A stretch of 64,000 nucleotides of DNA, taken from Eubacteriales bacterium (GTDB lineage: Bacteria > Bacillota > Clostridia > Oscillospirales > CAG-272). The notes under the pieces were generated by a model. The model did not search any database, was not told the origin of the DNA, and saw only the letters and a list, made by a program, of their open reading frames with translations. Positions 18,236 to 19,524 of the stretch are shown here, piece after piece. The DNA lies in NCBI GenBank assembly GCA_045612865.1, contig JAZKZW010000082.1, positions 5,135 through 69,134 of the forward strand, read 5' to 3'. How positions within the stretch are numbered: position 1 is the stretch's first letter; every line of letters begins with the position of its first letter. The position numbers were made by a program, and so were the translations under genes.

Positions 18236-19524
18236 TGTTATTAACTCTAAGTTTTTTATCTTAGACTCTGGAGGTTTCCCTCATTTGCATCGATTGGTCA
18301 ATTCCAATCCAGTTTAGCATATCTTTTCACTTGCATAGTGTCGAAGTCTCTTGGAGATATTTTATTCTGCATTGCAGTTTCAATCTCTATGCGTTGCGCG
18401 TGTTGCAACTGTTACATTACAACTTCCGCTCTGATTAGCATTTTACAGCTTTCCAGTTTTTTACTTCGATTTAATCACGGCAATTCCTCATTATTTAAAA
18501 TTTAATACAGTTTCATACTTACGATCTAAATATATCGTAGCATTTAAGTAAAGATCTTTTAATGCCAAATTTGCTTGTTTATTACGCAATTCAAAGCTAT
18601 AAATCGTGCCGTGCTCATAGATATAAGAACACTCTTTTTTAAAATCTACATATTGAGCAAACCAAGTTTTTACATATTCACAGCTTGTTTTAGAACCAAC
18701 ATATTTAAAATAGCCATCTTCAACATGCCCATCTCCATCAATCATGCCTCTTAGATAAGCTGTATCTAAAAGGGGATTATTAAAAATATATGGAATTTCT
18801 TGCCCACTTTTACCCGCATATAAATTATATTGACGTAAGTCATCAATCATTGCTTTACAGCTGTACTCAAGATATGGACAAATATTATTTTTTTCATAAG
18901 CGCCTCCGATATCCTCTTTAATAGAGGCTGGAGAATCTTGCATAAAGATGGCTAATTTTTCTAAATGTTTTTTGTCTTTGTTGCCAAGCTTCACTCTTAG
19001 CACGCCACGATTATTATTGATATAGGCGTCTGCTAAAAAGAAGCCTAACCAATAAGCCTATTCTTCTGTTGTAATATCTTTAAAAGCAAGTCTGTTATAT
19101 GCTTTTAATGATTTATTTATATAATTTGTACCCATAACAGCCATTCTTCTTTTTATCGTGTCTGTTTTGGTTCCAAATTTATTGGCTACTACAGTAATTG
19201 GCTCATCATGTTCTATAAAATATAGAACTGGCTCTAATTCTTTTTCTGAAATATAATAGTAAGCATCTTGATAATAATATTGATAATCTACATAGTCTTG
19301 CAAATGTTTGCTAATTGAATGACGATCAACTCCAAATTTCTCTGCAACTTTTGTTAAACTATCTTCTGGATGCTCATTCGCGTATTCGCAAGCAGCGAAT
19401 AATTTCTTTGACATGTGTTTCATAAAACTTCTCCTTTATTTCTATATTTTCTTTATCATTTATATATAAAAATTAAGGTGGAAGAATTACTTAAATTTAA
19501 CCAAAAATTTTAAATATTTCTTAT
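18236..19524 (-). mobile_element. group-I-like intron in gyrA carrying a LAGLIDADG homing endonuclease
   Basis: exon 1 ends ...CACGGT (after U), insertion ends in G, exon 2 resumes GAT; joins to [10 protein letters not shown]. Confidence 0.6.
18491..19423 (-). CDS. LAGLIDADG homing endonuclease with N-terminal HTH domain; single in-frame TAG at 19055-19057
   Basis: two table ORFs share a frame separated only by TAG; motifs AYWLGFFLADAY and LRGMIDGDGH. Confidence 0.6.

What the first reader, a model, noticed from the sequence alone, without database searches (positions are those of the whole stretch)
18236..19524. gyrA split by a ~1.29 kb group-I-like intron at the [10 protein letters not shown] junction
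Exon 1 (19525..19764) encodes the GyrA N-terminus up to ...GTYHPHG, then a K and a stop. Exon 2 (16118..18235) resumes exactly with [13 protein letters not shown]; B. subtilis GyrA reads [19 protein letters not shown]. The intervening 1289 nt follows a U (CACGGU|), ends in G before GAU, and carries a LAGLIDADG homing endonuclease. All of this is typical of a group I intron. A split polypeptide at this position, just upstream of the catalytic region, is implausible.
Basis: partly seen in the sequence, partly recalled or inferred. Interest (0 to 1): 0.7.

Follow-up and report, generated by a model that had tools for sequence, protein, structure and literature searches.

The report
Self-splicing intron inside phage gyrA
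A phage DNA gyrase gene is interrupted by a mobile, self-splicing group I intron that carries its own homing-endonuclease gene; this is a well-known kind of selfish element in phages, so the finding is correct but ordinary.

Summary
gyrA (minus strand) is interrupted exactly between the Gly and Asp codons of [10 protein letters not shown] by a 1298-nt insert. The true boundaries are 19530..18233, not 19524..18236. All 18 related phage contigs have an uninterrupted gyrA at this point.

The last 258 nt of the insert form a group I ribozyme. A 16-nt guide sequence pairs with both exon ends (P1 with a G·U at the splice site, plus P10). The intron ends in G. A P3-P9.2 core with a P3/P7 pseudoknot is supported by strong covariation in 32 and 117 homologous sequences.

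Close homologues of this RNA interrupt gyrA in Bacillus phages AR9/PBS1 (annotated as spliced), BpSp and Yersinia phage phiR1-37. Four uncultivated phage contigs carry it at the identical site.

Rfam's group I model misses the whole family, but it also scores the T4 td and nrdB introns below its own cut-off.

The LAGLIDADG endonuclease gene lies in the P1 loop and has one in-frame TAG. The phage carries a tRNA-Gln-like CUA suppressor and never ends a confident gene on TAG, so the enzyme is probably made.

Verdict: a new member of a known kind, of modest interest.

The parts
19531..19764 (-). gyrA exon 1, ending ..TAC CAT CCT CAC GGT = YHPHG. The likely start is the second ATG at 19758, 6 nt after the GGAGG at 19769-19765.
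   Evidence: Pfam DNA_topoisoIV positions 1-49. Colinear with the relatives and with PDB GyrA.
18233..19530 (-). Group I intron, 1298 nt. It begins AAAUAA just after exon U19531 and ends ..AACAUUG (omega-G = 18233).
   Evidence: Boundaries come from the empty sites in 18 relatives and from the P1/P10 pairing.
19525..19527 (-). In-frame TAA two codons into the intron. It stops ribosomes coming from exon 1.
   Evidence: The homologous introns have the same arrangement: L144 GGT|AAATAA, phiR1-37 GGT|TAA, AR9 GGT|AAACAGTAG.
19431..19436 (-). Shine-Dalgarno AAGGAG, 7 nt upstream of the endonuclease ATG (19423).
   Evidence: Read directly from the sequence.
18491..19423 (-). Homing-endonuclease gene, 310 codons. 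It has an N-terminal helix-turn-helix-like region plus a double-motif LAGLIDADG domain, and lies inside the P1 loop. Motif 1 (AYWLGFFLADAYI) is at 19057-19019. Motif 2 (YLRGMIDGDG) is at 18757-18728.
   Evidence: Pfam LAGLIDADG_3, 4e-8. PHROG 4645 'endonuclease', 6e-35 over residues 21-306. 28% identical over the full length to phiR1-37 g328. Alignment with five intron ORFs.
19058..19060 (-). In-frame TAG, codon 122 of the endonuclease gene, immediately before LAGLIDADG motif 1.
   Evidence: It aligns with Lys in all five homologues. It is probably read as Gln.
18475..18490 (-). Internal guide sequence UGAGGAAUU|GCCGUGA. The first 9 nt pair with exon 2 GAUUCCUCA (P10). The last 7 nt pair with exon 1 UCACGGU (P1), with G18481 opposite U19531 at the splice site. 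It starts directly after the endonuclease stop codon TAA (18493-18491).
   Evidence: 16 contiguous bp, 0 of 5000 shuffles. It occupies the same position as the GCCGU guide of the homologues.
18341..18469 (-). P3 (18469-18463 with 18347-18341). It encloses P4 (18456-18453/18434-18431), P5 (18450-18448/18439-18437), P6 (18429-18427/18400-18398), P6a (18423-18416/18409-18402), P7.1 (18387-18383/18358-18354) and P7.2 (18377-18374/18370-18367). There is no P2.
   Evidence: Coordinates. Covariation. The single-sequence MFE recovers these helices.
18317..18392 (-). P7 (GCAUA 18392-18388 with UAUGC 18321-18317). It forms a pseudoknot with P3 and encloses P8 (18340-18337/18331-18328). J8/7 is AAAAGA. 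The outermost G-C pair (18392/18317) is nearly invariant and is the candidate guanosine-binding site.
   Evidence: In P7, 106 of 114 rows have G-C at the first pair, and the second and third pairs covary.
18233..18312 (-). P9 domain. It comprises the closing helix CUG/CAG (18312-18310/18270-18268), P9 (18309-18304/18297-18292), the invariant GAGG-GAAA-CCUC hairpin (18282-18271), P9.2 (18265-18260/18251-18246), and the tail GUUAAUAACAUUG ending in omega-G 18233.
16118..18232 (-). gyrA exon 2, from GAT TCC TCA = DSS.. to the stop codon TGA at 16120-16118. It contains the catalytic-Tyr motif SSRYTEARL and the C-terminal beta-propeller.
   Evidence: Pfam DNA_topoisoIV positions 50-428 and DNA_gyraseA_C.
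22444..22519 (-). Accessory (inferred): a tRNA with anticodon CUA, Gln-like. It would let the TAG in the endonuclease gene be read as Gln.
   Evidence: ARAGORN. Rfam tRNA, 46.4 bits. Closest to the window's tRNA-Gln(UUG).

Best explanation
The insert is a mobile group I self-splicing intron, with an IA-like architecture (P7.1/P7.2 present, no P2). It lies in the phage gyrA gene between the codons equivalent to E. coli GyrA Gly81 and Asp82. That numbering is from my own knowledge; the site is inside the quinolone-resistance region.

**Proposed mechanism**
1. gyrB-gyrA is transcribed as a pre-mRNA. Ribosomes translating exon 1 stop at the TAA two codons into the intron.
2. The 258-nt 3' part of the intron folds into the ribozyme core. 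Its guide sequence (18490-18475) pairs with the end of exon 1 (P1, U·G at the splice site) and the start of exon 2 (P10).
3. A free guanosine attacks after U19531. The freed exon 1 then attacks after omega-G 18233.
4. The ligated mRNA encodes a continuous GyrA of about 780 aa reading ..[10 protein letters not shown]..
5. The LAGLIDADG endonuclease is encoded in the roughly 1040-nt P1 loop and has its own Shine-Dalgarno sequence. It is translated with its single TAG read as Gln by the phage's CUA tRNA.
6. The enzyme cuts intron-less gyrA alleles of co-infecting related phages. Repair from the intron-bearing copy spreads the intron (homing).

**Shown here:** the anatomy, the precise insertion, the conserved and covarying RNA structure, and the homology to annotated phage gyrA introns.

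**Inferred:** catalysis, TAG read-through, and endonuclease activity and target.
For: **Precise insertion**
- All 18 related phage gyrA genes read ..HPHG|DSS.. without interruption.
- The two exons abut at Pfam profile positions 49/50.
- The spliced protein is colinear with PDB GyrA.

**P1, P10 and omega-G**
- The guide pairing is 16 contiguous bp with a G·U at the splice site. No shuffle out of 5000 reached this.
- The intron ends in G.

**Core structure**
- RNAalifold on 5 gyrA introns recovers P2-P9.2, with 35 of 64 pairs compensatory.
- The hand-drawn group I structure with the P7 pseudoknot, on a MAFFT alignment of 32 sequences, gives 92.8% of cells paired. The slid controls give 32-42%. 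48 of 62 pairs are compensatory, and 0 of 500 shuffles reach the observed values.
- On a model-based alignment of 117 distinct sequences, 97.6% of cells are paired, against 36-43% for the slid controls. 32 of 37 pairs are compensatory.
- The MFE of the window core alone recovers the helices, z = -2.9.

**Homology**
- The core is 71-87% identical to DNA inside gyrA of AR9/PBS1 (CDS annotated as a join of 3), BpSp and phiR1-37.
- Same-family introns sit at the identical HPHG|D/E site in L033, L067, L078 and L144.
- The guide covaries with the exon: L033 has exon ..GGG with guide CCCGU, where ours has ..GGU with GCCGU.

**Endonuclease**
- TAG read-through is plausible.

**Translation signals**
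- Exon 2 lacks a start codon and a Shine-Dalgarno sequence.

**Literature**
- Group I introns are frequent in large phages, and splicing has been confirmed by metatranscriptome reads (PMC12880540).
Against: - Rfam RF00028 gives no hit even at E<=10.
- My family model does not significantly match the T4 td or nrdB introns. Membership therefore rests on architecture and not on detected homology to an experimentally proven ribozyme.
- No transcript or splicing data exist for this sequence.
- P2, present in nearly all relatives, is missing here. The closely related L144 intron also lacks it, though.
- The 5' splice site is about 1040 nt from its guide sequence, which could slow folding.
- Under the standard code the endonuclease gene carries a premature TAG. 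It is one base from the Lys codon (AAG) found in all homologues, so it could be a simple nonsense mutation.
Confidence: 0.9

Rival explanations
1. Gene fission without splicing. A homing-endonuclease cassette has split gyrA, and the two pieces are translated separately and assemble into a working enzyme. From my own knowledge, precedents are T4 topoisomerase genes 39/60 with MobA and Aeromonas phage Aeh1 nrdA with MobE.
For: Exon 1 ends in a stop codon, and an ORF caller can start exon 2 at a TTG. phiR1-37 annotates the pieces as separate genes g327 and g329. Rfam sees no intron.
Against: There is no Shine-Dalgarno sequence or ATG before exon 2, while the neighbouring genes have them. The TTG is part of the conserved intron tail ..AAUAACAUUG. 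A 258-nt conserved, covarying ribozyme with guide pairing to both exon ends has no role in this model. The split falls within a contiguous conserved motif (HPHG|D) that aligns without a gap to solved GyrA.
Confidence: 0.04
2. Decayed intron. The element was a group I intron but no longer splices (loss of P2, endonuclease gene hit by a nonsense codon). gyrA would then be a pseudogene and the phage would rely on host gyrase.
For: P2 is absent, unlike in almost all relatives. There is a TAG at a position that is Lys in all homologues.
Against: - All core helices are intact, and the family model scores this copy among the best (184 bits).
- P1 and P10 are perfect.
- Both gyrA exons are full-length and conserved, with no stops or frameshifts.
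- L144 has the same P2-less design in another phage.
- The 188 codons after the TAG remain open in 31%-GC DNA.
- TAG is never used as a terminator by the other 42 confident ORFs.
Confidence: 0.05
3. Another kind of intervening element: an intein, a group II intron, or an assembly artefact.
For: Inteins are known in bacterial GyrA (from my own knowledge). LAGLIDADG domains also occur in inteins.
Against: - The insert is not in frame: there is a stop after two codons and long non-coding stretches.
- No Hint or intein domain and no reverse transcriptase were found.
- Rfam finds no group II domains.
- The insert boundaries are exact to the nucleotide relative to 18 empty sites. The same architecture recurs in independent contigs. 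Both argue against misassembly.
Confidence: 0.01

Closest known systems
Group I introns in gyrA of Bacillus phages AR9/PBS1 (KU878088 g044, annotated as a 3-piece join), vB_BpuM-BpSp, and Yersinia phage phiR1-37 (g327 / g328 / g329)
   Same: The ribozyme family is the same: 71-87% identity in the core, the same helices, the same GAGG-GAAA-CCUC hairpin and the same GUUAAUAAC tail. The host gene is the same. phiR1-37 also has a homologous HTH+LAGLIDADG ORF in the P1 loop.
   Different: Those introns sit 15 nt upstream (..IG|xYHPHG) or further downstream (AR9 intron 2, DAHG|NFG), and all have a P2 hairpin. The AR9 and BpSp copies have no ORF. None has an in-frame TAG in the ORF.
Same-site gyrA introns in uncultivated phage contigs (IMG/VR; loci L033, L067, L078, L144)
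   Same: The insertion point is identical (HPHG|D/E) and the RNA family is the same. L144 shares the intron start AAATAA, the guide GCCGTGA and the lack of P2, and its core is 87-90% identical to ours.
   Different: L144 carries its LAGLIDADG ORF in the P8 loop and lacks the N-terminal HTH region. L033 has G rather than U before the splice site, with a compensating C in the guide. Their gyrA genes belong to other phage lineages.
Phage T4 td intron with I-TevI (classical IA2 group I intron)
   Same: Both are self-splicing introns in an essential nucleotide or DNA-metabolism gene, with a stop codon right after the 5' splice site and an endonuclease ORF looped out of the core. Both have P7.1/P7.2 and a three-hairpin P9 domain. 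By eye the J6/7-P7 and J8/7-P7' strings are similar (AACG-ACUAU / GAUAUAGUC in td; AACG-CAUAG / GAUAUGCUA here).
   Different: No significant similarity was found by nhmmer or by the covariance model. The endonuclease family differs (GIY-YIG in a P6 loop against LAGLIDADG in the P1 loop). td is seen weakly by Rfam RF00028 (40 bits), whereas this family is not seen at all.
Recoded stop codons in an intron endonuclease of 'Agate' phages (bioRxiv 10.1101/2021.08.26.457843)
   Same: A group I intron endonuclease sits inside an early gene and carries in-frame reassigned stop codons. The authors propose that this delays endonuclease production until the suppressor is active.
   Different: There the codon is TGA read as Trp. 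Here it is TAG, probably read as Gln. Here the pattern extends to all five endonuclease-type ORFs in the window.

Membership tests
Group I self-splicing intron | 5' splice site follows a U that forms a wobble pair with G in an internal guide sequence (P1) | tested here: met
   Exon UCACGGU pairs with GCCGUGA (18481-18475), with U19531·G18481. With P10 this makes 16 contiguous bp, reached by 0 of 5000 shuffles.
Group I self-splicing intron | Intron ends in G (omega-G), and the 3' exon pairs with the guide (P10) | tested here: met
   The intron ends ..AACAUUG|GAU. UGAGGAAUU pairs with GAUUCCUCA over 9 bp.
Group I self-splicing intron | Conserved core: P3-P4-P5-P6 and P7-P3'-P8 with a P3/P7 pseudoknot, plus P9, supported by comparative analysis | tested here: met
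   On the MAFFT alignment, 92.8% of cells are paired against 32-42% for slid partners, and 48 of 62 pairs are compensatory. On the model-based alignment, 97.6% are paired and 32 of 37 pairs are compensatory. An unbiased RNAalifold run gives the same helices.
Group I self-splicing intron | Guanosine-binding G-C pair in P7 and A-rich J4/5, J8/7 junctions | tested here: inconclusive
   There is a near-invariant G-C at the first P7 pair (106 of 114 rows). J4/5 and J5/4 are AA/AA and J8/7 is AAAAGA. This is consistent, but binding cannot be shown from sequence.
Group I self-splicing intron | Match to the curated covariance model Rfam RF00028 (Intron_gpI) | tested here: not met
   No hit at E<=10 on 2 kb, on 286 nt, or on the whole window. 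Controls: the annotated AR9 gyrA introns also give no hit. T4 td scores 40.3 bits and nrdB 35.7 bits, both below the 50-bit cut-off. The model is insensitive to phage introns of this type.
Group I self-splicing intron | Precise insertion that leaves the host reading frame intact after removal | tested here: met
   18 of 18 related gyrA genes are continuous at this point. There is no gap against PDB GyrA.
Group I self-splicing intron | GTP-dependent self-splicing and ligated exons in vivo | not testable with these tools
   No transcript data are available. The exact gyrB protein is not on record in public assemblies.
Subgroup IA2 (T4 td-like phage introns) | Extra P7.1/P7.2 between P7 and P3', an extended P9 domain, and detectable similarity to known IA2 members | tested here: inconclusive
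   P7.1 and P7.2 are present and covary. P2 is absent. My family model does not hit T4 td or nrdB (best 8.2 bits, E about 4). Subtype models (GISSD-derived) are not available here.
LAGLIDADG homing endonuclease | Two LAGLIDADG motifs, each with the catalytic acidic residue, in one chain | tested here: met
   The motifs are WLGFFLADA and LRGMIDGDG. Pfam LAGLIDADG_3 scores above its cut-off. PHROG 4645 matches over the full length.
LAGLIDADG homing endonuclease | Uninterrupted reading frame | tested here: inconclusive
   There is one TAG at codon 122. The frame is intact if TAG is read as Gln. Supporting this: a CUA tRNA that is Gln-like, and no confident gene in the window ends on TAG.
LAGLIDADG homing endonuclease | Cleaves the intron-less allele | not testable with these tools
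   The predicted target is around CATCCTCACGGT|GATTCCTCAATC. The empty sites of the relatives differ at several wobble positions.
Intein | In-frame insertion with Hint splicing domains | tested here: not met
   There is a stop two codons into the insert and non-coding flanks. No Hint or intein domain was found.
Group II intron | Domain V/VI RNA and a reverse-transcriptase ORF | tested here: not met
   Rfam finds no group II hits. The only ORF is LAGLIDADG.
Endonuclease-mediated gene fission (two separately translated halves) | The downstream half has its own start codon and ribosome-binding site | tested here: not met
   The 20 nt before GAT are AAAACUUAGAGUUAAUAACA plus UUG. There is no GGAG-like element, and this stretch is the conserved intron tail.

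The most novel reading that the evidence does not exclude
The single amber codon in the intron endonuclease may be a functional switch and not damage.

The endonuclease stop codon lies directly against the ribozyme's guide sequence. Ribosomes that translate the whole ORF on unspliced RNA would therefore sit on P10/P1 and block splicing of an essential gene. Terminating at TAG (codon 122) keeps them about 570 nt away until the phage's tRNA-Gln(CUA) becomes active. Endonuclease synthesis would thus be confined to a later stage or to the excised intron.

More broadly, in this window in-frame TAG codons occur in all five homing-endonuclease-type ORFs and in none of about 40 other genes. This suggests that the phage uses code reassignment to keep its selfish nucleases in check.
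Probability: 0.2. Interest if true: 0.55.

Novelty: new member of a known kind. Interest (0 to 1): 0.3.

Why it matters
**For annotation.** The gene should be recorded as one spliced gyrA, join(19764..19531, 18232..16118) on the minus strand, plus an intron-encoded endonuclease translated with TAG as Gln. It should not be recorded as two gyrase fragments and two hypothetical ORFs.

**For methods.** This is a clear example of a large phage and Clostridia group I intron family that the standard Rfam model does not see. It was found in at least 120 viral contig stretches and 46 bacterial genome stretches. Pipelines and databases seeded from that model probably under-count such introns.

**Biologically.** The finding adds one more case of a homing element targeting the most conserved stretch of gyrA. 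It also offers a small natural data set: the same site and ribozyme with the endonuclease gene in the P1 loop in one phage and the P8 loop in another, and neighbouring sites 15 nt apart. This could be used to study how ribozymes and endonuclease genes combine. None of this changes current understanding.

Tried and rejected
- **Rfam cmscan** on 2 kb, on 286 nt and on the whole window found no group I or group II hit. I do not treat this as evidence of absence. The controls show the model misses the annotated AR9 introns and under-scores T4 td and nrdB.
I built a model of the 3' two-thirds instead.
- **That model and an nhmmer family profile** did not significantly match T4 td or nrdB. I could therefore not show homology to an experimentally proven ribozyme, and the subgroup assignment stays open.
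- **Second copies in the window:** neither nhmmer nor the model with filters off found one. The best other hits were 14 and 13 bits, E about 0.2-0.3.
- **blastn with the family consensus** against GenBank phages found no record in which a member is annotated as an experimentally studied intron.
- **Promoter and terminator consensus scan** around the intron was at the shuffle background, so uninformative.
- **Exact-protein look-up of gyrB** found nothing on record, so the source and near-identical strains were not found.
- **tblastn of GyrA** against GenBank phages found no relative above about 40% identity, so the phage lineage is unnamed.
- **Alternatives considered and rejected:** intein, group II intron, misassembly, and independently translated gyrA halves (see the rival explanations).
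- **An early helix guess dropped:** GCAUAG pairing with CUAUGC across P3' was abandoned once the comparison showed that P8 and P7 explain those bases.
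Full report
**1. What is in the sequence**

On the minus strand, gyrB (19917-21818) is followed by a gyrA that comes in two pieces.
- ORF 19525-19764 encodes the GyrA N-terminus up to ..GTYHPHG, then Lys and a stop. It matches positions 1-49 of Pfam DNA_topoisoIV.
- The frame that runs to the stop at 16118 resumes with [13 protein letters not shown]. It matches positions 50-428 of the same profile, plus the C-terminal beta-propeller repeats.
- When joined, the protein aligns without a gap across the junction to solved GyrA structures. 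The best hit, 4z2c, reads [20 protein letters not shown] (E = 1e-67).

The boundaries need correcting. The insert that must be removed is 19530..18233, 1298 nt.

**2. The insert is a precise presence/absence polymorphism**

A scan of viral contigs with the exon 2 protein returned 18 related phage loci (42-81% identity, contigs mostly 105-164 kb). In every one the reading frame runs straight through ..HPHG|DSS... The empty sites align nucleotide for nucleotide with the spliced window junction CACGGT|GATTCC. Nothing of gyrA is missing or duplicated at the insert.

**3. The RNA**

Rfam found no group I or group II model in the region, even at E<=10 on a 286-nt search.

*Guide sequence.* Directly after the endonuclease stop codon lies UGAGGAAUU|GCCGUGA (18490-18475).
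- The last 7 nt pair with the end of exon 1 (UCACGGU), with the splice-site U opposite a G.
- The first 9 nt pair with the start of exon 2 (GAUUCCUCA).
- No run of 16 contiguous pairs of this kind appeared in 5000 shuffles of the intron.
- The intron ends in G.

*Relatives.* The 3' 230 nt of the insert are 71-87% identical to DNA in unrelated phages:
- inside gyrA of Bacillus phages AR9/PBS1, where the AR9 CDS is annotated as a three-piece join;
- between the gyrA fragments of BpSp and of Yersinia phage phiR1-37;
- inside a split terminase gene of a Clostridium phage and a split tail gene of a Staphylococcus phage.

The most conserved 20-mer occurs in at least 120 viral contig stretches. It also occurs in 46 stretches of bacterial genomes, almost all Clostridia and other Bacillota.

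*Covariation.*
- RNAalifold on five gyrA introns gave P2, P3, P4, P5, P6, P6a, P7.1, P8 and three P9 hairpins, with 35 of 64 pairs compensatory.
- I then drew the full group I structure, including P7 as a pseudoknot with P3 (coordinates), and counted it on a MAFFT alignment of 32 non-redundant members. 92.8% of cells form pairs, against 32-42% when partners are slid by 1-3 columns. 48 of 62 pairs show changes on both sides. 0 of 500 shuffles reach any of the observed measures.
- A covariance model of the 3' two-thirds found 122 copies in 100 loci. On that alignment 97.6% of cells pair, against 36-43% for the slid controls. 32 of 37 pairs are compensatory, including two in P7. This alignment is fitted to the model, so it leans towards the structure; the MAFFT result does not have that bias.
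- The window core folded on its own gives the same helices (z = -2.9).

The topology is that of a group I intron: P1-[no P2]-P3-P4-P5-P6-P6a-P7-P7.1-P7.2-P3'-P8-P7'-P9 domain-omega-G. The junctions J4/5 and J5/4 are AA/AA, J8/7 is 6 nt long, and a near-invariant G-C pair lies in P7.

**4. Why Rfam is silent**

As a control I ran Rfam on phage T4.
- The textbook td and nrdB introns score only 40.3 and 35.7 bits, below the 50-bit gathering threshold.
- The annotated AR9 gyrA introns give no hit at all.

The negative result therefore reflects the model's coverage.

My own family model does not significantly match td or nrdB either. The family is thus distinct at the sequence level, and I leave the subgroup open. 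It looks IA-like because of P7.1/P7.2. By eye, the J6/7-P7 and J8/7-P7' strings resemble those of td.

**5. Site and relatives**

- The AR9 intron 1, BpSp and phiR1-37 introns sit 15 nt upstream of ours (..IG|xYHPHG). AR9 intron 2 is further downstream.
- Four uncultivated phage contigs carry a family member at exactly our site (HPHG|D/E): L033, L067, L078 and L144.
- L144 is nearly the same ribozyme as ours: same intron start AAATAA, same guide GCCGTGA, no P2, and 87-90% identity. Its LAGLIDADG ORF is in the P8 loop, while ours is in the P1 loop. The ribozyme and the endonuclease gene therefore have separate histories, as is usual for such elements.
- In L033 the base before the splice site is G rather than U, and the guide has a compensating C.

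**6. The endonuclease gene**

- The frame 19423-18491 has its own AAGGAG 7 nt before the ATG.
- It matches Pfam LAGLIDADG_3 and PHROG 4645 'endonuclease' over residues 21-306.
- It is 28% identical over its full length to the phiR1-37 intron ORF g328.
- Both LAGLIDADG motifs keep their catalytic Asp.
- It contains one in-frame TAG (19060-19058). The five homologues all have Lys at that position, and TAG is one base from the Lys codon AAG.

Two readings are possible: a fresh nonsense mutation, or read-through. I favour read-through for four reasons:
- The window encodes a tRNA with anticodon CUA that is most similar to the window's own tRNA-Gln(UUG).
- Of 44 confident minus-strand ORFs, 27 end in TAA, 15 in TGA and only 2 in TAG. 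Both of those are internal TAGs of endonuclease genes.
- Four other ORFs with internal TAGs become full-length GIY-YIG or HNH-type homing endonucleases when TAG is read as Gln. Some of these TAGs fall at positions where I recall Gln as canonical for GIY-YIG enzymes, for example YIG*S.
- The 188 codons after the TAG are open in 31%-GC DNA.

TAG-to-Gln recoding with suppressor tRNAs is documented in gut phages of about 136 kb (PMC10607447). The idea that recoded stops delay an intron endonuclease has been proposed for Agate phages (bioRxiv 10.1101/2021.08.26.457843).

**7. Mechanism and rivals**

The best explanation is a mobile group I intron that splices out of the gyrA pre-mRNA and spreads by endonuclease-mediated homing (confidence 0.9).

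The rivals fit poorly:
- Separately translated gyrA halves: exon 2 has no start signal, and the ribozyme would have no purpose.
- A decayed, non-splicing intron: all helices and both exons are intact.
- An intein, a group II intron or a misassembly.

What remains unproven is catalysis itself, TAG read-through, and the endonuclease's activity and target.

**8. Novelty**

Group I introns with homing endonucleases in essential phage genes are classical, and they are now known to be abundant in large phages (PMC12880540). Introns of this very family are annotated in AR9 gyrA and occur at the same site in other metagenomic phages. This is a new member of a known kind.

The modest points of interest are:
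- the family's invisibility to Rfam;
- the P2-less design with the ORF in the P1 loop, abutting the guide sequence;
- the restriction of in-frame TAG codons to endonuclease-type genes in this window.

Noticed in passing
window 22444-22519 (-), and the whole window: There is a suppressor-type tRNA with anticodon CUA, most similar to the window's tRNA-Gln(UUG). TAG is never the terminator of a confident gene: of 44 ORFs, 27 end in TAA, 15 in TGA and 2 in TAG, and both TAG cases are internal to endonuclease genes. The phage very probably reads TAG as Gln (code-15-like).
   Followed up: partly
window 54449-55294 (-), 57764-58618 (-), 11070-12254 (-), 24949-25788 (-), 18491-19423 (-): In-frame TAG codons within a gene body are seen only in five homing-endonuclease-type ORFs. 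These are three GIY-YIG ORFs (4, 2 and 4 TAGs; one is fused to a Gln-rich coiled-coil N-terminus), one HNH/'intron encoded nuclease'-like ORF (about 9 TAGs), and the intron LAGLIDADG ORF (1 TAG). About 40 other genes with 417 ordinary Gln codons have none. This may mean translational gating of selfish nucleases, or import from recoded phages.
   Followed up: partly
window 42702-43321 (-): A ROOL RNA (Rfam RF03087, 161.6 bits, E = 3e-34) lies at the edge of the tRNA array.
   Followed up: no
window 42354-54437 (-): There is a dense array of about 24 tRNA genes, all on the minus strand. One ARAGORN call has a 4-base anticodon 'agtt' (52677-52751; Rfam also scores it as a tRNA, 45.3 bits). Rfam also finds a tRNA at 47186-47257 that ARAGORN did not list.
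   Followed up: no
window 19739-19942 (-): A small 67-aa ORF lies between gyrB and gyrA and overlaps both ends. It has no family match that I looked for. It may be a real linker gene or an artefact of ORF calling.
   Followed up: no
L147 (phage T4) 9596-9826 and 4509-4749; L001 (AR9) 2900-3760: Rfam RF00028 scores the classical T4 td and nrdB introns below its own gathering threshold (40.3 and 35.7 bits against 50). It gives no hit for the annotated AR9 gyrA introns. Rfam-seeded surveys are likely to miss many phage group I introns.
   Followed up: yes
L144 2096-3048; L033 2533-3747: These are same-site gyrA introns in other phages. L144 has the LAGLIDADG ORF in the P8 loop, not the P1 loop. 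L033 has a G (not U) before the 5' splice site, paired to a C in the guide sequence.
   Followed up: partly
L148-L193 (bacterial genome contigs): The family's conserved 20-mer occurs in 46 stretches of bacterial genomes, almost all Clostridia and other Bacillota (Clostridium, Terrisporobacter, Romboutsia, Sarcina, Gemella and others). Some contigs hold two or three copies. I did not check whether these lie in prophages or in cellular genes.
   Followed up: no
window 53054-53146 (-) and 3149-3329 (-): There are weak, non-significant matches to the family model (13-14 bits, E about 0.2-0.3). They are probably chance, but the first lies in an intergenic stretch of the tRNA array.
   Followed up: no
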